The position numbers and the translations under genes were made by a program. The notes beneath the pieces were generated by a model. It was not told the origin of the DNA. It did no database searches and saw only the letters and a program-made list of their open reading frames with translations. Shown piece after piece: positions 1,434-8,719 of a stretch of 9,712 nt of DNA (position 1 is the stretch's first letter; every line of letters begins with the position of its first letter). The DNA is from a virus (taxonomy: Duplodnaviria; Heunggongvirae; Uroviricota; Caudoviricetes). The DNA is taken from positions 1 to 9,712 of the IMG/VR virus record IMGVR_UViG_2778261088_000009; one strand, written 5' to 3'.

Positions 1434-2078
1434 ATGAATTTTCCTGGCCCAGCATCAACTGCTTCTTATTTAAGATCTAATTACAGCAGAGATTTCTTGA
1501 CTATTCAGTGTGGTGAATACACATACGGAAAACCAAGAATTGAGATTGGGATGCATGACGACAAGCGAATTCTTTCAATTGGTGAATATTGCTCTATAGC
1601 TTTCGACGTTGTGATTTTTGTTGGAAGACAAGGTCGTCATGCGACAAATACATTAACAAGTTACCCGCTAAATATGGTTGTAGATCCTGAGTTAAGAAAT
1701 GGATTTAACCCTACAGGACATATATGGCAGGCGAGCTCTGACATATTTGGGAAAGATCTTGATGTTATCATAGGGCATGATGTATGGATTGGTTCTAGAT
1801 GTACAATTTTAGCAGGGGTTAATATTGGAACTGGTGCCATCATTGCCGCAGGCTCTGTTGTTACTAAAGATGTACCGCCATATGCAATTGTAGGAGGAGT
1901 ACCAGCTAAGGTTATTAGATACAGACATCCTCCAGAAATAATTGATAGATTATTAAAGACTGAATGGTGGAAGTTAAAACCTAATGAGCTGTGGAATTTG
2001 ATTGGTTCATCTTTCGGGACGTCTAATATTGAAATCCCATTAAAAATATTAGAAAACAGAAGCGCTTCAGAAAAATAA
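1434..2078 (+). CDS. Hexapeptide-repeat (left-handed beta-helix) acetyltransferase of the XAT class (Vat / CatB-like xenobiotic acetyltransferase)
   Basis: 214-aa ORF. Shows the motifs I associate with streptogramin A (Vat) and CatB-type acetyltransferases: N-terminal GEYTYG, the H-A-T-N-T...SYPL segment with the presumed catalytic His, hexapeptide repeats (IIGHDVWIGSRCTILAGVNIGTGAIIAAGSVVTKDVPPYAIVGGVPAKVIR) and a C-terminal LL-x-x-EWW motif. The gene and its flanks are visibly AT-rich compared with int and the tailspike 5' half. Confidence 0.85.
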   Translation: MNFPGPASTASYLRSNYSRDFLTIQCGEYTYGKPRIEIGMHDDKRILSIGEYCSIAFDVVIFVGRQGRHATNTLTSYPLNMVVDPELRNGFNPTGHIWQASSDIFGKDLDVIIGHDVWIGSRCTILAGVNIGTGAIIAAGSVVTKDVPPYAIVGGVPAKVIRYRHPPEIIDRLLKTEWWKLKPNELWNLIGSSFGTSNIEIPLKILENRSASEK

Positions 2079-2172: not shown

Positions 2173-4608
2173 TTATATATTTTCTCTCATTTCTATCATT
2201 TCAATTCTAGATAATGCTTTTTGGTAATTCCTGCGTTGTAATGCAGCTTCAAGGACTAAAGCCTCTTCATAACGGATACCATAACGTGAGCCTGCAGGAG
2301 TGACCAGAATATCTTCATATTCTGGATCTGCCTCTTCTTCATACTCTTCTTCGACTTCTTGAAACTCTGTCTCGATGTACTCCTCTTCTACATCTTCAAC
2401 TACAGGGACGCTCACGAATGGATTTTGCGCAAAAGGTGAACCATCTTCATTAAGAACAGGTATCATTTCCATTTTTGGAGTCTGATACTCTTCATTCACT
2501 ACTCGTTTAATCCGTGTTCCGTCTTCCAGTACCTCATCCTTTAATACCTGACGACTCTCAGTAACCATCACTGGTTTGCTTACAATTCGAGTTTTAGTAA
2601 CCTGCACTGGAACTGTTGTTATGCGAGTTTTAGTAACCATTACACCTTCGTTTGTCTGAACCTTAGTATATTGATCATCCCACTCGTCAAAGCAAAAGAA
2701 TCCAAATCGGTGCGCATCAAGTCCATGACGCTCAAACGCCTCTTTCGCACGCTGAGCGATCACACCAAAATGCCAGCGCGCCCCGTCCTCACCTTTTTCT
2801 TCCACCCTGTCGAGATACTGGAACTGCACAAAATCTACCTCCGACCAGGCATCCAGAATCGCATCAGCAAAAGATGGTTGCATCAATCGTTCGTCTGATG
2901 TGACAACAAAATCAAGCACCCCACGGGCGAGGATCGGAGGGTTTTTCGTTTTGTGATTCTCATCTGACGTTACGGTGAAGGCTGTCTGTGTGGCCCCGCC
3001 AGCCCAAGCAAGAGCAGCCGTGCCGCAATTAATGGCATTTGTGGTGGTTGGCGTGAGCGCCTTATTTACTGTAACAGTGCCAGTGCCAAGTGCCTCCAGC
3101 GCAATTGAACAATTGCTGATACCTTCGGCACTGATCCTGATGCGAGGATCCGTGATGCTTGCAGTACGCAGGCGAACTGCTCCAGTATCACCGTCTGCAT
3201 AGGACAGGCGAAAGGCCCTCAGCCCATTTCCTTCTAAATCAAAGCTTCGGTCCCTAAATACAGCTCCCATACGCACAGCATTGTTGGACACGCGAGATTG
3301 TAAGTAGCTAAGGCTATTGCCCGCCCCGTCCTCCCAACCTATCCGGTGGGTATTTCGCATAACAATGGCTTTCTGGTATACATCTGTTAAGCCAGACTCA
3401 GTGAAGGTTCTCAAAGATCCGATAGGATATGCAATGCCTGCTCCCCACTTAGATCCATTGGAACTAATGGCTAACGCCTGTGTGCAATCCTCAGTTGTGC
3501 CATTGATTGTCGGGTCTGCACCTGCAACCAAAGATATACCAGTGGTCTTACCACGGTTATCTGCGCTATGCATGTCTACGTAGGTGCCGTGGTTAACTAT
3601 CGCCATCTCAGCACACCAGGTAGTGCCCTTTGCATTGGGGTAACGTTTTGCATCTAAGTATAACGCCCAAACGTTATTGGTTACACCTGATTCATTATCG
3701 TTAACTCCCACTCCAACCACGCCAATAGCGGCACCACCAGTAGGCATTTCTTTATTATGTGCCGCTCCAGCCATACCAATGGCCCCAGTTGAAGAATAGG
3801 ACGCAAAGGTGGCGTTTTTCTCGACCCATCCCAGATTTGGCTGAAGTGTCCCATTGGGGGCTACATAATCTTTCTTCCCCAGCCAGGTACTTTGATCTAC
3901 AGGCGCATCCTTTGCACCTGAATAATCAAAGGCGGCGTCCCCAACAAATAAACGCGGATACCTGGAGGAGTTAACTGGTGTTCCAGGCTCAGACCAAACA
4001 GGACGCCGCTTAAGCATCACGCCGCCAGTGCCTAAAAACTCGGCTTCACTGTCTACAATAAAATTACCTCTATGGAAGGAATTTAATAGATATTTCCCGG
4101 CAGGGACATAAACATCTCCAGCAAACAAGGCCGCAACTGCAAATGAACTGTCCGAGTTATTAGCGCCTGTTGAATCTGCTCCTCCAGCAAATCCACTCCA
4201 AGTAACAGGCTTTGCTAATCCTCCGACAAATCCAGCTCCACCAGGACCCTCCAGTTCAGATCGCAGTTGATCAGGGTCATACTTCAGCACATTAGGAAAA
4301 TAGAACTGCTGCGCACCATATGCATCATATACAGCCATAGAATGGCCTTGCACGGTTACGAATTTGGCAATCTGTCCGTTATATACTGGATACCCTGCGG
4401 CATTGATGACGATCGGCTGTGCAACAGGAACGTGAGAACCATCTTCGTTCTCAACATAGACCTGAATCTGGTTATCAGGATTTACCGGGTCAGTGTCAAT
4501 TTTACCGATATAAATTTTGCCATTAGCCACGGCTTTAAAAGAACGAGCCATAGTGAAGAGTTGCGAAGGCATACTCACTACAACATTGGCATTTATCGAA
4601 TCTGTCAT
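2173..4608 (-). CDS. Tailspike protein, mosaic: P22-type head-binding N-terminal domain, unrelated central (receptor-binding / depolymerase-like) body, C-terminal intramolecular-chaperone-like domain
   Basis: 811-aa ORF with a GGAG Shine-Dalgarno about 9 nt upstream of the ATG at 4606-4608. The first ~115 aa ([44 protein letters not shown]...[15 protein letters not shown]...NVLKYDPDQ) are near-identical in pattern to the P22 gp9 head-binding domain as I remember it. The central region is Gly/Ala/Thr/Asn-rich with no P22 similarity. The last ~240 aa (from [12 protein letters not shown]) resemble the auto-cleaving C-terminal chaperone domains of endosialidase and T5-pb1-type fibers and end in a highly acidic tail. 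Confidence 0.9.
2587..2638. repeat. Tandem direct repeat inside the tailspike 3' coding region
   Basis: 15-16-nt unit (t/g)cgagttttagtaacc at 2587-2602 and 2623-2638 (36-nt period), encoding the repeated peptide VTKTRI in the tailspike C-terminal domain. Confidence 0.7.
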
Positions 4609-4771: not shown

Positions 4772-4776
4772 GGGCA

Positions 4777-4801
4777 TAAAAAAACCCAGCCGAAGCTGGG
4801 T
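4777..4801 (-). terminator. Rho-independent terminator (first of a tandem pair) downstream of the 322-aa gene
   Basis: On the minus strand: stem acccagc / gctgggt (7 bp) with tetraloop, followed by a run of 6-7 U (plus-strand A-run 4778-4784). Confidence 0.6.
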
Positions 4802-4850
4802 CGTTGCGTTGGTTATCTGTCAGTAGTTATGTGCTGGCTGAAGGATTTGT

Positions 4851-4877
4851 ACAAAAAACCCACCTGAAGGTGGGTTT
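4851..4877 (-). terminator. Rho-independent terminator immediately after the stop codon of the 322-aa gene
   Basis: 9-bp stem (4856-4864 / 4869-4877) with tgaa loop, followed on the minus strand by a T-rich tract. Starts about 6 nt after the TAA at 4883-4885. Confidence 0.55.
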
Positions 4878-4882
4878 CATAA

Positions 4883-5851
4883 TTAGATTTCTGGTTTCAT
4901 TCTTCCGAAAACCTTTTCTATTCCTTTTTCGTATTCTTCTCTTGTCTCACTCATCGCTGCGACACCAAGAAGCTTACCGATATGCTGACGCAAAGCCTTG
5001 ACACCAATTTCAGAAAGGAACAGATGCAACTTATCAGATTGTTTTCCGTTCTCGTCTCGGCTGGCTCGAATCTGTTCAAGGATTTTACCTTTACTCTTTG
5101 CTAGCGGGGTGTATATCTGCATGTTGGTTAGCTGCCCAAAACGAATAGGCCGTCCTTTCTCTGGCCTATTCAGGCCGTACAGTCGATACCACTCCTCGTA
5201 TAGCTCATCTGGAAATTCCTTTTCATATTGACGAGCCTCTTCACGAACAAACGCTTTGAACTCGTCAATGACAGCCTGAACTTCTGGACGATAACCAGCA
5301 AGCGCATACGCAACCCCCTTAATTCCCGCCTTAGCGGAGGCATTAATAAGTCTCTGTGCTGCGGCGGCTGCCTTTAACCGTGATTGTGGTAGATCGTCAT
5401 TATCTTTGGCTTCTATTAGTGCCCTACCAATATCAACAATTGCTGTAATGTCATAACCTAACGCTTGATGAACGGTTTTAGACTTCGAAGTAAGTTGAAA
5501 TTTATAGGGATTTTCCATTTTTCGCTGCAATTCTAGATCTCGGTATTTGCTCATATACTGAGCGCCAAGCAGTTGATCTAAATCCCTGGCATGTTCACCA
5601 ATCCCTAGCAACTGAGATAATCCAGTTTTCGTAACAACGACAGTTTTCGACTCGTCATCCAGTACATAACATTCAGCATCAATGCCAAAATCATCTAAAA
5701 AGTTACCACGATGAGTTGCCCTGAGAATCTTACTTTTCCATCTTGCAGCAGCTGCTTTCTTTGCTATTTCAGAACGCTGCTCTTTAGTCAGCGACTTTGC
5801 GCGAGCGATCCCGCCCTTAGCTTTCCCTTCGCCACTTTTCTTTTCAGTCAT
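4883..5851 (-). CDS. Hypothetical protein (322 aa) with a basic N-terminal motif; occupies the position held by the antirepressor/immunity-I genes in P22
   Basis: Long minus-strand ORF. I place the start at the ATG at 5849-5851 (MTEKKSGEGKAKGG...) because AAAGGTG sits 9 nt upstream; the track's longer start at 5914 adds 21 implausible residues. The N-terminus GGIARAKSLTKEQRSEIAKKAAAARW looks like a basic nucleic-acid-binding motif. No family assigned with confidence. Confidence 0.8.
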   Translation of the reverse strand: MTEKKSGEGKAKGGIARAKSLTKEQRSEIAKKAAAARWKSKILRATHRGNFLDDFGIDAECYVLDDESKTVVVTKTGLSQLLGIGEHARDLDQLLGAQYMSKYRDLELQRKMENPYKFQLTSKSKTVHQALGYDITAIVDIGRALIEAKDNDDLPQSRLKAAAAAQRLINASAKAGIKGVAYALAGYRPEVQAVIDEFKAFVREEARQYEKEFPDELYEEWYRLYGLNRPEKGRPIRFGQLTNMQIYTPLAKSKGKILEQIRASRDENGKQSDKLHLFLSEIGVKALRQHIGKLLGVAAMSETREEYEKGIEKVFGRMKPEI

Positions 5852-5944
5852 AATGCAAGCACCTTTGTTGTGATGTATGCTTGCATTATATGCACTGTAC
5901 ACACATACAAGCAAGCATAAAACAAAAACAAAATGCTTGCATTA
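5850..5944. promoter_or_regulatory. Two operator-like palindromes built from four copies of the half-site TAATGCAAGCA in the divergent intergenic region
   Basis: Palindrome 1: 12-bp arms ataatgcaagca (5850-5861) and tgcttgcattat (5878-5889), 16-bp spacer, covering the -10 and the start codon of the 322-aa gene. Palindrome 2: arms gcaagcat (5911-5918) and atgcttgc (5933-5940, extending to atgcttgcatta), 14-bp spacer, overlapping the -35. Centres are about 56 bp apart. Confidence 0.55.
5885..5914 (-). promoter_or_regulatory. Candidate sigma70 promoter for the 322-aa gene
   Basis: On the minus strand: TTGCTT (5909-5914), 18-bp spacer, perfect TATAAT (5885-5890). Leaves a ~26-nt leader containing the AAAGGTG Shine-Dalgarno. 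Both hexamers overlap the palindromic half-sites in the next feature. Confidence 0.5.
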
Positions 5945-6007
5945 CAACCGCGCTACTCCAACTACACATTATCATCTGGTATCCTGCTCAAAACTAAGGA
6001 GGTTGGT

Positions 6008-6331
6008 GTGTATACAACAGTTATCGTGATAGCTATCGCACTCATTGTGGTTCAGTACCAACTGGCATCTTTAAAACAAAAGATATCTGACCTCAAGACT
6101 GAGAACGAAGCACTTAAAAACTCAATAAAAGATGAGAAGAACAAACTATCATTCACCATATCTGATGTTGAGCAATCCATTGAAATTATTGAGAATAATA
6201 TTAACAGGCTAAAAAAAGAAGATATTCATGAAATCAATGACAATATCAAGGATTTGAAATCTTGGCTTAGGAATGTAGGACAAATCGCCACATCAACACG
6301 AGATAAGCTCAATCCATCCATGGATGATTAA
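6008..6331 (+). CDS. Small bitopic membrane protein with coiled-coil domain (107 aa from GTG 6008; track ORF starts at 5933)
   Basis: Strong AAGGAGG Shine-Dalgarno at 5996-6002, 5 nt before an in-frame GTG at 6008. Product starts with a hydrophobic helix (YTTVIVIAIALIVVQY) followed by heptad-like Lys/Glu/Asn-rich sequence (LKQKISDLKTENEALKNSIKDEKNKL...). AT-rich codon usage unlike the neighbouring late genes. Confidence 0.6.
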   Translation: MYTTVIVIAIALIVVQYQLASLKQKISDLKTENEALKNSIKDEKNKLSFTISDVEQSIEIIENNINRLKKEDIHEINDNIKDLKSWLRNVGQIATSTRDKLNPSMDD

Positions 6332-6679
6332 TTACTCCTGTGCCATTCCGCTTAGCGACGCTACAATGCCAGCCCTCGCTAAGCGATTGAACTCTTCGTT
6401 TCCAACTGCATCACGTATTGCTTTTATGGCGACTTTATTTGCCATAAATCTGCGTTCCGCCGCCGCTAATGCTTCTTTGCTTCCACCTGCTCTTACTGCT
6501 TTGGTGGCTTCCTGAACAGCTTTCTCTATCGCATATCGACCACTACGTGTGGTGGCAATTTTAGATACAGCGCCTTTTAACCCGGCGCCAACTAAAGCAC
6601 CCGCGGCAGCGCCTGCAATGCCCCCTCCAGCGCCACCAACAATGGCACCTGATGTTGAGTTGGCAATTGCATTTAACAC
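6332..6679 (-). CDS. Hypothetical glycine-zipper protein (115 aa, GTG start)
   Basis: Minus-strand ORF beginning at a GTG that overlaps the upstream stop (GTGTTAA). N-terminal Gly/Ala-rich hydrophobic segment [28 protein letters not shown] is typical of glycine-zipper membrane-inserting helices. Could be a separate coupled gene or the 3' part of one frameshifted gene with the 149-aa ORF. Confidence 0.5.
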
Positions 6680-7122
6680 TGTTGATGTGACGTTGGATAC
6701 CCACCAATTGTTTCACCGGCTTGCGCGTAAGGGTCTGTCGGTCGATCGACTGGACGATAGACATCATCCAAAACCTTGGGTCCACCAAGCCCCTGACTGA
6801 TTGCATTAATCAGACTTGCGCCGCCCTGCAATACGTCAAATGGTATGTTTACCAGACCACGACCAGCCTGTTCTGCAATTTGCCCTGCACTTTGACCACC
6901 TGTGAGCCAATCATCAGCTTGTTGCATCAATGATGGTTCTTCTTTCTGCTGCTGAGGCGGAGGGTATGCTGCATAAAACTGATCTCTTGCTTCAGCCCAT
7001 TTGTCACCAGCCTTAGGGGCAACAACCTCATCAAAATATTGCGCTTGAGCCTGTGCTTTCTGTTCTTCAGTTAACGCCTGATACTGTGGAGAAGCGATAA
7101 CATCTTTCCATGCTTTAGCCAT
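6673..7122 (-). CDS. Hypothetical protein (149 aa), Gln/Ala/Pro-rich; possible virion internal or ejection-type protein
   Basis: Its ATG at 7120-7122 overlaps the TAA of the upstream 449-aa gene (TAATG), indicating translational coupling. Low-complexity Q/A/P-rich composition. No confident family assignment. Confidence 0.6.
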
Positions 7123-8473: not shown

Positions 8474-8719
8474 TTACCCCTTAAAACAACGAGCCAAGCA
8501 GACCAAGACCAGCACCGATAACGGCATGATGCCGTTTTCTGTATCCGCAAACTGATATCCAAGCTCGATACCTTTCGCCTGCCATGCTGCCATCATGTCT
8601 TCGAGGTCATTAATGGCATCTTCAATTGCCTGAGGGTCAGCATCTGTCAACGTGGCATTGGAATACAGCCCGGCTTTTCGTAAAGCCTTTAGAACGAGAT
8701 CACCCTTCGTTTTCGCCAT
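8474..8719 (-). pseudogene. N-terminal remnant of a gp4-like tail accessory (head completion) gene
   Basis: 81-aa ORF. The first ~66 aa ([62 protein letters not shown]) track the P22 gp4 N-terminus as I remember it. The ORF then ends after 18 unrelated residues ([18 protein letters not shown]), whereas P22 gp4 is about 166 aa. The break coincides with a 17-bp palindrome at 8520-8536. Confidence 0.55.

What the first reader, a model, noticed from the sequence alone, without database searches (positions are those of the whole stretch)
5850..5944. Four copies of a TAATGCAAGCA half-site forming two palindromic operators over the divergent promoter
Two inverted repeats about 56 bp apart share the same half-site. 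One spans the perfect TATAAT -10 and the start codon of the 322-aa gene; the other overlaps its -35 and lies just upstream of the membrane-protein gene. This layout is expected for a dimeric repressor controlling a divergent promoter pair, as Mnt and Arc do in P22 immunity-I, yet no small repressor gene is visible here. The regulator may be encoded elsewhere in the prophage, or the 322-aa protein may autoregulate through its basic N-terminus.
Basis: seen in the sequence. Interest (0 to 1): 0.45.

Follow-up and report, generated by a model that had tools for sequence, protein, structure and literature searches.

The report
Conserved self-operator of mobile P63C gene
The four repeats are real and sit on the promoter of the 322-aa P63C-domain gene. 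The same repeat-plus-gene unit occurs in phages and in IS1-type transposons of many bacterial phyla, which points to self-regulation by that protein rather than to a missing Mnt/Arc-like phage repressor.

Summary
The repeats exist. There are three exact TAATGCAAGCA copies (0.01 expected by chance) and a fourth that keeps only the core GCAAGCA(T). They alternate in orientation over 5851-5944.

The same layout precedes P63C-family genes in about 100 of 127 related loci: GCAAGCA, N14-17, TGCTTGC, N24-27, GCAAGCA, N14-17, TGCTTGC. These loci span enterobacterial phages, Acidobacteriota, Myxococcota, Burkholderiales and Oscillospiraceae, where the proteins are only 45-50% identical.

A -35-like TTGC(A/T)(T/A) lies in site 2. 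A TAnnAT -10 abuts site 3. The ribosome-binding site lies between sites 3 and 4, and the ATG follows site 4. The core arms never show compensatory changes, so the DNA sequence is what is conserved, not a hairpin.

P63C is the only gene shared by all contexts. Six homologue loci that lack the basic N-terminal motif also lack the sites.

In at least eight loci the unit sits inside a 2.7-3.9 kb IS1-family transposon with terminal inverted repeats and 8-bp target duplications, facing the transposase.

Best reading (inferred, not shown): the P63C protein represses its own promoter. mnt, arc and ant are deleted in this defective prophage, and their operators are unrelated. Enterobacterial copies also carry a LexA-like box in the promoter spacer.

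The parts
5934..5944 (-). Site 1 (distal): TAATGCAAGCA on the gene strand, core 5934-5940
   Evidence: Exact copy. The equivalent site is present in about 100 related loci; consensus AATGCAAGCAT.
5907..5918 (+). Site 2: degenerate outer flank, intact core GCAAGCA 5911-5917 plus T5918. Overlaps the -35-like hexamer.
   Evidence: Core invariant in the alignment A3.
5878..5888 (-). Site 3: TAATGCAAGCA on the gene strand, core 5878-5884. Abuts and overlaps the -10; the predicted transcription start falls at its 3' end (about 5878).
5851..5861 (+). Site 4 (proximal): TAATGCAAGCA on the + strand, i.e. TGCTTGCATTA on the gene strand. Lies between the ribosome-binding site and the start codon; its last base is the A of the ATG.
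5909..5914 (-). -35-like hexamer TTGCTT, 18 nt upstream of the -10
   Evidence: Read. TTGC(A/T)(T/A) sits at the same place in 33 of 33 diverse loci, with a 16-19 nt spacer. Below the threshold of the consensus scan.
5885..5890 (-). -10 hexamer TATAAT, flush against the core of site 3
   Evidence: A hexamer with A2 and T6 sits at this position in 28 of 33 diverse loci.
5862..5866 (-). Shine-Dalgarno-like AAAGG in the spacer between sites 3 and 4
   Evidence: A purine-rich GGAG/AAGG/GAGG at the 3' end of this spacer is seen across loci.
4883..5851 (-). 322-aa P63C-domain gene (PF10546, phrog_2384): the only gene that always accompanies the sites
5738..5815 (-). Codons 13-38: near-invariant basic motif GGIARAKSLTKEQRSEIAKKAAAARW, the candidate DNA-reading module
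   Evidence: Invariant G13 G14 A16 R17 A30 R37 W38. The motif and the sites are present or absent together. Predicted as two helices at low confidence.
5894..5909 (.). LexA-like box: CTGT-N8-ACAA on the + strand, TTGTATGTGTGTACAG on the gene strand. Lies between -35 and -10.
   Evidence: (C/T)TG(T/A)-N8-ACAG at the same position in 12 of 28 enterobacterial cassettes and 0 of 26 others.
4775..4802 (-). Terminator-like hairpin with T run, 80 bp after the P63C stop. It is phage backbone (it follows ant in relatives), brought next to P63C by the mnt-arc-ant deletion.
6008..6331 (+). Neighbour only, not part of the unit: 107-aa transmembrane/coiled-coil hkcB-like gene (phrog_5962)

Best explanation
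The 94-bp region is the promoter-operator of a self-contained, horizontally mobile single-gene unit. Four 11-bp sites (consensus AATGCAAGCAT) alternate in orientation, with core-to-core spacings of 22-23, 32-33 and 22-23 bp. They bracket a sigma-70-type promoter: site 2 covers the -35, site 3 abuts the -10 and the predicted transcription start, and site 4 lies between the ribosome-binding site and the ATG.

The protein encoded immediately downstream is the 322-aa P63C-family protein. It most likely binds these sites itself, probably through its near-invariant basic N-terminal motif (GG-ARA-L(S/T)-E-R-IA-KAA-ARW), as a dimer of dimers or higher oligomer, and represses its own transcription.

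In the ancestral setting the same operator lies between this gene and a divergently transcribed IS1-family transposase inside a transposon, and would control both genes. In this prophage only the P63C-directed promoter is intact.

Shown: the sites, their layout on promoter-like elements, their cross-phylum conservation, their exclusive linkage to P63C genes, and the transposon context.

Inferred: that P63C is the binding protein, that the N-terminal motif reads the DNA, and that the effect is repression.
For: (1) The sites are non-random: 3 exact 11-mers against 0.01 expected.

(2) The same four-site layout precedes P63C homologues in 101 of 127 loci, including Acidobacteriota, Myxococcota, Syntrophaceae, Oscillospiraceae, Burkholderiales and Alphaproteobacteria at 45-50% protein identity. 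The spacers are free to vary.

(3) A reverse search with the DNA pattern alone found 119 viral loci. Of these, 115 have a P63C gene adjacent, 3 are cut by a locus or contig end (in one of them, L170, the only P63C-like ORF in the locus lies about 7 kb away and is frameshifted), and 1 is a low-complexity chance hit.

(4) P63C is the only gene shared across contexts: the late/immI region here and in 611R6, between gene 24 and cI in ST104, and inside IS1-family transposons.

(5) Promoter geometry is conserved: TTGC(A/T)(T/A) in site 2 in 33 of 33 loci, a 16-19 nt spacer, TAnnAT flush with site 3 in 28 of 33, and the ATG 0-3 nt after site 4.

(6) In the 14 core 'pairs' there are 0 compensatory changes. 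Variants mostly break pairing (15 broken cells, 5 single-side changes that keep a standard pair). The central AA/TT orientation never flips. This is sequence readout, not structure.

(7) Motif and sites go together. All homologues with sites carry the N-terminal motif. Six loci whose protein lacks it (L033, L038, L041, L042, L251, L252) have no sites. Divergent subfamilies have variant sites: TACTTGC/GCAAGTA in L013/L015/L024, GCAGGCAT/ATGCCTGC in L257.

(8) In a complete 46-kb relative the 9-mer occurs only in this operator, so the circuit is local.

(9) The cassette, with all four sites, is intact in a prophage that has lost parts of genes 4-7 and 16 and all of mnt-arc-ant.
Against: There is no binding or expression data.

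The motif/site co-absence is weaker than it looks. The motif's codons lie within about 130 bp of the sites, so one 5'-end replacement removes both, and the loci are not phylogenetically independent.

Part of the site conservation could reflect promoter function: the TTG of the -35, the AT of the -10 and the AT of the ATG all lie within sites or their flanks.

The -35 is weak, and the consensus scan calls no promoter.
Confidence: 0.6

Rival explanations
1. A trans-acting repressor encoded elsewhere binds the sites. It could be a phage Mnt/Arc-like dimer or a host factor. The P63C gene would then be merely the regulated cargo.
For: The layout is that of a classical operator over a promoter. The window holds no recognised regulator gene. 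The closest phage relative has mnt and arc right next to the cassette.
Against: The unit is found in hosts from at least five phyla and in three unrelated genomic contexts, with no second shared gene. A host factor with invariant 11-bp specificity across those phyla is unlikely. The motif is absent from the rest of a complete relative, including the mnt-arc intergenic region. No Mnt, Arc or Ant homologue is in the window. The sites are retained in a decayed prophage.
Confidence: 0.1
2. The palindromes act as nucleic-acid structure. One option is an RNA hairpin that holds the ribosome-binding site and AUG, giving translational control or processing of read-through late transcripts. The other is a DNA cruciform.
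For: The fully transcribed region folds to -49 kcal/mol, z = -6.7. The ribosome-binding site lies in the loop and the AUG at the base of the proximal hairpin. In P22-like phages, late transcription crosses this region to reach the tailspike gene (established knowledge).
Against: There are no compensatory changes in 14 core pairs over 54 diverse sequences; changes mostly break pairing. The cores are invariant in sequence rather than only in complementarity. With the conserved -10 flush against site 3, the cassette's own mRNA would start at the end of site 3 and lack the 5' arms. No Rfam family matches. The element is conserved in non-phage settings that have no read-through operon.
Confidence: 0.12
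3. The sites are binding sites for the IS1-family transposase, or another transposition function, of the ancestral transposon. In this prophage they would be a relic that survives because it also supplies promoter elements.
For: In at least eight loci the sites lie between the transposase and P63C genes of a bounded transposon. A mirror -10 faces the transposase in 7 of 9 such loci.
Against: Transposase-less phage cassettes keep sites 1 and 4, which have no promoter role, over 57-100% protein identity. The transposon termini (GGTAGTGGGTCAGTTTGAAA) are unrelated to the sites, and no extra sites lie near the ends. What decays in phage copies is the mirror -10, not the sites.
Confidence: 0.08
4. 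Host LexA is the main repressor in enterobacterial copies, acting at the CTGT-N8-ACAG-like box in the promoter spacer. The four repeats would be secondary.
For: The box sits at a fixed position in 12 of 28 enterobacterial cassettes, with TGT and ACAG kept while the 8-bp centre varies. One copy, L104, is a perfect CTGT-N8-ACAG. LexA control of prophage accessory genes is well known (established knowledge).
Against: The window's box has TTG instead of the critical CTG. The box is absent from 16 of 28 enterobacterial and all 26 other cassettes, which still keep the four sites. It cannot explain the repeats themselves, so it is better seen as an added layer.
Confidence: 0.1

Closest known systems
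P22 immunity-I region: Mnt and Arc operators at Pant/Pmnt
   Same: Same genomic neighbourhood in P22-like phages, between the ejection-protein genes and the tailspike gene. Palindromic operators overlie promoter hexamers of a compact control region.
   Different: Mnt and Arc are ribbon-helix-helix repressors that bind single 17-21-bp operators of unrelated sequence. Here there are four 11-bp sites with 22-23 and 32-33 bp spacing and no ribbon-helix-helix gene. mnt, arc and ant are deleted in the window. In 611R6 they coexist with the cassette but without the motif.
Phage morons (autonomous promoter-gene-terminator insertions in lambdoid phages)
   Same: A single accessory gene with its own promoter, inserted between backbone genes. 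The slot holds other cargo in relatives (epsilon34 gene 15), and the cassette sits elsewhere in ST104.
   Different: The promoter carries a four-site operator conserved across phyla. The terminator now used is backbone-derived. The cassette has a transposon counterpart.
IS1 family insertion sequences and InsA autoregulation
   Same: The relatives of the cassette lie in elements with an IS1-family DDE transposase (PF03400), GGT-starting terminal inverted repeats and 8-bp target duplications. IS1 also represses its own promoter with an element-encoded DNA-binding protein (established knowledge).
   Different: InsA binds the terminal repeats. Here the operator is internal, unrelated to the termini, and linked to a separate 320-aa P63C gene. 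I found no description of P63C-carrying IS1-family elements in the searchable literature. The window itself has no transposase, terminal repeats or target duplication.
Regulator/operator pairs conserved across phyla (HrcA-CIRCE, NrdR boxes, ParB-parS)
   Same: A near-invariant DNA word co-inherited with a near-invariant protein segment over very wide taxonomic distances.
   Different: Those are chromosomal housekeeping systems with many or essential targets. This is a one-target loop on a mobile gene, and binding has not been shown. The comparison rests on my own knowledge of those systems.
Bro-N / KilA-N-type phage DNA-binding proteins with C-terminal P63C domains (Iyer, Koonin and Aravind 2002; from memory)
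   Different: Pfam Bro-N and KilA-N models do not hit the protein. The structural match is too weak to assign the fold.

Membership tests
P22 immI Mnt/Arc-operator system | Ribbon-helix-helix repressor genes mnt and arc flanking the operators | tested here: not met
   tblastn of 611R6 Mnt and Arc against the window gives nothing below E = 1. The window lacks the 1.7-kb mnt-arc-ant segment of 611R6.
P22 immI Mnt/Arc-operator system | The regulated gene is ant (antirepressor) | tested here: not met
   The downstream gene is a P63C-domain protein (PF10546, 6.8e-14). There is no Ant similarity.
P22 immI Mnt/Arc-operator system | Operator sequence shared with the mnt-arc control region | tested here: not met
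   In 611R6, which has mnt and arc, ATGCAAGCA (up to 1 mismatch) occurs only in the P63C upstream region and not between mnt and arc.
P63C-domain protein family (PF10546 / phrog_2384) | Profile match above the curated threshold | tested here: met
   52.7 bits against a cutoff of 26.1. phrog_2384 at 1.7e-104 over the full length. 1682 homologues. 3262 50%-cluster representatives.
Four-site P63C operator (defined here) | GCAAGCA-N13-18-TGCTTGC-N22-28-GCAAGCA-N13-18-TGCTTGC ending 0-3 nt before the start codon of a P63C gene | tested here: met
   Window spacings are 23/33/23, with the ATG 3 nt after the core of site 4.
P63C-carrying IS1-family transposon (defined here from L009, L013, L016, L019, L025, L034, L039, L043) | Divergent IS1-family DDE transposase gene next to site 1 | tested here: not met
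   The divergent neighbour is an hkcB-like 107-aa gene. None of the window ORFs that were scanned or inspected is a transposase.
P63C-carrying IS1-family transposon (defined here from L009, L013, L016, L019, L025, L034, L039, L043) | Terminal inverted repeats GGTAGTG... about 270-340 bp beyond the P63C stop, and 8-bp target duplications | tested here: not met
   No correctly placed and oriented match in the window, even with 2 mismatches. The sequence after the stop is phage backbone.
Sigma-70 promoter | -35 and -10 hexamers with a 16-18 nt spacer | tested here: inconclusive
   Perfect TATAAT, TTGCTT (3 of 6), 18-nt spacer. The consensus scan's threshold is not reached. The same geometry is conserved in 28-33 of 33 loci. 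No transcription-start data.
LexA (SOS) box, E. coli type | CTGT-N8-ACAG with an AT-rich centre overlapping a promoter | tested here: inconclusive
   The window has TTGT-ATGTGTGT-ACAG, with one mismatch in the critical CTG. The position is conserved in 12 of 28 enterobacterial cassettes, and one copy is perfect. Binding not testable here.
Known structured RNA (Rfam 15) | Match reaching a family's gathering score | tested here: not met
   Only miRNA-precursor-like hits at 12-29 bits against thresholds of 40-195.
Phage moron | Own promoter, accessory gene between backbone genes, variable presence or position among relatives | tested here: met
   Absent from epsilon34, CUS-3 and P22 at this slot. 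Present between gene 24 and cI in ST104. A terminator-like hairpin follows, but it is backbone-derived.

The most novel reading that the evidence does not exclude
P63C-family proteins, so far a domain of unknown function, are sequence-specific DNA-binding autoregulators. Their N-terminal GG-ARA...ARW motif reads an 11-bp word (AATGCAAGCAT) that has stayed invariant across bacterial phyla. Together with an IS1-family transposase they form a previously undescribed two-gene transposon in which one four-site operator controls both genes. Temperate enterobacterial phages have captured the P63C half as a moron and, in many cases, placed it under additional LexA (SOS) control.
Probability: 0.35. Interest if true: 0.75.

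Novelty: new variant of a known kind. Interest (0 to 1): 0.6.

Why it matters
An operator laid over a promoter is a familiar design. This one is unusual in three ways:
- Its sequence and geometry are almost invariant from E. coli prophages to Acidobacteriota and Firmicutes.
- It is tied to a widespread protein family with no assigned function (3262 cluster representatives).
- It links a common prophage accessory gene to an IS1-family transposon group for which I found no description.

If P63C binds it, the family gains a first molecular activity, a defined DNA target and a simple assay. IS1-type elements would gain a new accessory regulator. The SOS-box variant would suggest that these prophage genes are damage-induced.

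For annotation, the four-site pattern is a nearly specific marker: 115 of 119 viral hits lie next to a P63C gene. It also fixes the true start codon of those genes.

Tried and rejected
- **Mismatch-tolerant motif count.** The window count at up to 2 mismatches was uninformative (7 found, 4.9 expected). I replaced it with exact counts.
- **Consensus promoter scan.** It found nothing because the -35 is 3 of 6. I relied on cross-locus conservation instead.
- **Rfam at permissive E-values.** Only hairpin noise.
- **Defence-system and NCBIfam libraries.** Nothing for the 322-aa protein.
- **PDB by sequence, whole protein and N-terminal peptide.** Nothing.
- **Pfam on N-terminal peptides at E up to 10.** Nothing.
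- **Literature.** Searches for 'P63C', 'P63C domain', the 10-mer, IS1 passenger genes and ISMhu11 gave nothing relevant.
- **Sites at transposon ends.** I considered whether the sites mark the ends. Rejected: the termini are GGTAGTG... and there are no extra sites near them.
- **hkcB-like gene as part of the unit.** Rejected: it occurs without the cassette in epsilon34, CUS-3 and SEN22, and homology begins only at 5955-5977.
- **Conserved second gene.** Only the transposase recurs (11 of 42 loci). Small ORFs in the 3' tail recur in 4 loci and were not pursued.
- **L077-type two-site copies next to a tRNA gene.** ARAGORN finds no tRNA there.
Full report

Reading 5700-6100 shows ATAATGCAAGCA-N16-TGCTTGCATTAT at 5850-5889 and AAGCAAGCAT-N14-ATGCTTGCATTA at 5909-5944. 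The exact 11-mer TAATGCAAGCA occurs three times (5851+, 5878-, 5934-). That compares with 0.01 expected, and 0 of 200 shuffles reached three.

The fourth copy keeps only the 7-bp core plus one base (5911-5918). Four of the five GCAAGCA/TGCTTGC cores in the window are in this stretch. The repeat finder confirms a perfect 12-nt and a perfect 8-nt inverted repeat and the 56-bp offset. It also shows that 5851-5944 as a whole is a 34-nt-arm palindrome.

TTGCTT (5914->5909, 18-nt spacer) overlaps site 2. The -35 is weak, so the consensus scan calls no promoter.

**2. Genomic setting**

The window is the right end of a P22-like (Lederbergvirus) prophage. Its features are:
- integrase, 1-1158
- hexapeptide acetyltransferase, 1434-2078
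- tailspike with P22 head-binding and S74 chaperone domains, 2173-4608 (-)
- the 322-aa P63C-domain gene, 4883-5851 (-)
- a divergent hkcB-like 107-aa membrane/coiled-coil gene
- remnants of gene 16
- gene 20
- a truncated gene 4

Compared with Escherichia phage 611R6, the prophage carries three deletions: mnt-arc-orf-ant, about 1.5 kb inside gene 16, and the stretch from mid gene 4 to gene 7. In the closest relative those genes are adjacent but have their own control region.

The membrane gene starts at GTG 6008, as annotated for epsilon34 gene 14. Homology to phages that lack the P63C gene begins at window 5955-5977. That places the right border of the cassette just outside site 1.

**3. The element travels with the P63C gene**

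In ST104 and about 20 other Salmonella phages, an 83-bp match covers exactly the repeats and the first codons. There the cassette sits between gene 24 and cI. The four cores are kept while the spacers differ.

I then collected 45 genomic and 80 viral loci encoding relatives of the protein. In 101 of 127 loci the arrangement GCAAGCA-N14-17-TGCTTGC-N24-27-GCAAGCA-N14-17-TGCTTGC lies immediately 5' of the gene. These include Acidobacteriota, Myxococcota, Syntrophaceae, Oscillospiraceae, Magnetospirillum, Burkholderia and Mesorhizobium loci, where the protein is only 45-50% identical.

The consensus site is AATGCAAGCAT. Core-to-core distances are 21-24, 31-34 and 21-24 bp.

The reverse test searched viral contigs with the DNA pattern alone and returned 119 loci. 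Of these, 104 have a P63C gene directly downstream and 11 have it on the other side of the pattern. Three are cut by the end of the locus or contig; in one of these, L170, the only P63C-like ORF in the locus lies about 7 kb from the pattern and is frameshifted. One is a low-complexity chance match.

In the complete 46-kb 611R6 genome the 9-mer occurs only in this operator, and near-matches are at or below chance.

**4. Anatomy relative to expression signals**

Across 33 diverse loci (alignment):
- TTGC(A/T)(T/A) is always inside site 2.
- A hexamer with A2 and T6 lies 16-19 nt downstream, flush against the core of site 3, in 28 of 33.
- A purine-rich ribosome-binding site ends the spacer between sites 3 and 4.
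- The ATG follows site 4 by 0-3 nt.

With this promoter the transcript would begin at about 5878, at the end of site 3. Sites 1-3 would therefore not be in the cassette's own mRNA.

**5. DNA word or hairpin?**

If the whole region is transcribed, it folds to -49 kcal/mol (z = -6.7). That follows automatically from the palindrome.

On 54 distinct sequences, the 14 core pairs show no change on both sides. The variants seen (TGCTTAC, TACTTGC, GCATGCA, TCCTTGC and others) mostly break pairing: 15 cells are unpaired and 5 are single-side changes that keep a standard pair. Only the AT-rich outer flanks show swaps, close to the shuffled expectation.

The non-palindromic centre (AA versus TT) never flips in any site. 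Rfam has no matching family. This pattern fits sequence-specific protein recognition.

**6. Who binds?**

P63C is the only gene common to all contexts.

Its N-terminus carries a near-invariant basic motif: G13 G14 A16 R17 ... A30 ... R37 W38 in 54 sequences. AlphaFold models this as two helices at low confidence, ahead of a confident beta/alpha domain (43-135) and a helical P63C domain.

Every locus with sites encodes a version of the motif. Six loci whose protein starts after the motif (L033, L038, L041, L042, L251, L252) have no sites. Divergent subfamilies have variant words: TACTTGC/GCAAGTA in L013, L015 and L024; ATGCTTGACA in L029; GCAGGCAT/ATGCCTGC in L257.

Caveats:
- The motif's codons and the sites are physically adjacent, so a single 5' replacement can remove both.
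- The loci are not phylogenetically independent.
- No known DNA-binding family is detected.
- Fold searches are not significant.

Binding by P63C is therefore an inference. I put it at about 0.6.

**7. Transposon context**

In 11 of 42 diverse genomic loci the divergent neighbour is an IS1-family DDE transposase (PF03400). Its start lies about 30-40 nt beyond site 1.

In L009, L013, L016, L019, L025, L034, L039 and L043, the block [transposase | four sites | P63C | 270-340-bp tail] has two hallmarks of transposition. It is bounded by about 20-bp terminal inverted repeats (GGTAGTGGGTCAGTTTGAAA and variants). It is flanked by perfect 8-bp direct repeats. These are genuine transposition products, 2.7-3.9 kb long, in hosts from several phyla.

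In these loci the sequence after site 2 forms a mirror -10 facing the transposase (7 of 9). In all seven enterobacterial copies tested it is decayed (ATACAA in the window).

The sites are not at the transposon ends, and extra copies are essentially absent. The window has no transposase and no terminal repeats. It holds a transposase-less derivative, or relative, of that module, used as a phage moron.

**8. An added layer in enterobacteria**

Immediately after the core of site 2, 12 of 28 non-redundant enterobacterial cassettes have (C/T)TG(T/A)-N8-ACAG, against 0 of 26 others. The 8-bp centre is variable and AT-rich.

The window reads TTGTATGTGTGTACAG (+ strand 5894-5909). L104 has a perfect CTGT-N8-ACAG. 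This resembles an E. coli LexA box sitting in the promoter spacer, but the window's copy has T in place of the critical C. I treat it as a lead.

**9. Comparison with known systems and novelty**

The design, palindromic operators over promoter hexamers, is classical and resembles P22 immI only in layout. All three membership features tested for immI fail.

IS1 InsA is a functional analogue in that an element-encoded repressor controls the element's promoter. However, InsA acts at the terminal repeats.

I found nothing in the searchable literature on the function of P63C proteins, on this DNA word, or on P63C-carrying IS1 elements. PHROGs, NCBIfam and PADLOC give no function. The family has 3262 representatives at 50% clustering.

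I class the finding as a new variant of a known kind: an autogenous promoter-operator. Two features would surprise a specialist: the cross-phylum invariance of the site layout and the transposon link.

**10. Verdict**

- Interest is 0.6.

Noticed in passing
window 5894-5909: LexA-like box (gene strand TTGTATGTGTGTACAG) between the -35 and -10 of the P63C promoter. The same position holds (C/T)TG(T/A)-N8-ACAG in 12 of 28 enterobacterial cassettes and in none of 26 others. This suggests SOS control was added in enteric phages.
   Followed up: partly
L009 1045-4276; L019 1592-4277; L013 1223-4053; L016 777-3534; L025 432-4264; L034 856-4202; L039 164-3224; L043 401-4336: IS1-family transposons of 2.7-3.9 kb carrying a P63C gene divergent from the transposase. 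They have terminal inverted repeats of about 20 bp (GGTAGTGGGTCAGTTTGAAA) and perfect 8-bp target-site duplications. Some carry a third large ORF. I found no description of such elements.
   Followed up: partly
window 6332-7122, 8474-8719 and about 4836-4853: The prophage is defective relative to phage 611R6. Gene 16 is split, with about 1.5 kb missing. Gene 4 is truncated and joined near the end of gene 7, so genes 10, 26 and 14 are gone. mnt-arc-orf-ant is deleted. The P63C cassette is intact.
   Followed up: yes
The hkcB-like gene starts at GTG 6008 after AAGGAGG, as annotated in epsilon34. The first 25 codons of the long ORF lie in cassette DNA.
   Followed up: yes
L077-L083, L086, L121, L123, L124, L126 (upstream of the P63C gene): Two-site versions of the operator. 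Sites 2 and 3 and the promoter between them are missing, as if recombination had occurred between repeats, and a TTGACT lies just upstream. They sit next to a sequence with a tRNA T-arm-like motif, but ARAGORN finds no tRNA in L077.
   Followed up: partly
L013, L015, L024; L029; L257; L249: Divergent P63C subfamilies with altered operators: TATACTTGC...GCAAGTATA (two or three sites), ATGCTTGACA/TGTCAAGCAT, AGCAGGCAT-N10-ATGCCTGCT, or only two canonical sites. This is possible protein-operator co-variation.
   Followed up: partly
window 4775-4802 (- strand): Terminator-like hairpin GACCCAGC-TTCG-GCTGGGTT plus a T run, 80 bp after the P63C stop. It corresponds to the terminator that follows ant in 611R6 and epsilon34, and now sits behind P63C because of the immI deletion.
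   Followed up: yes
window 1434-2078 and 2173-4608: A hexapeptide-repeat acetyltransferase lies between the integrase and the tailspike, possibly for O-antigen modification. The tailspike combines a P22 head-binding domain with a C-terminal S74 intramolecular-chaperone domain.
   Followed up: no
L004 1794-2642 (- strand): In Leminorella, the divergent neighbour of the P63C cassette is a Bro-N domain protein rather than a transposase.
   Followed up: no
L025 1652-1660: A single extra exact TGCTTGCAT inside the third ORF of the L025 transposon, 1.25 kb from the operator. No such extra copy exists in the other eight transposon loci.
   Followed up: no
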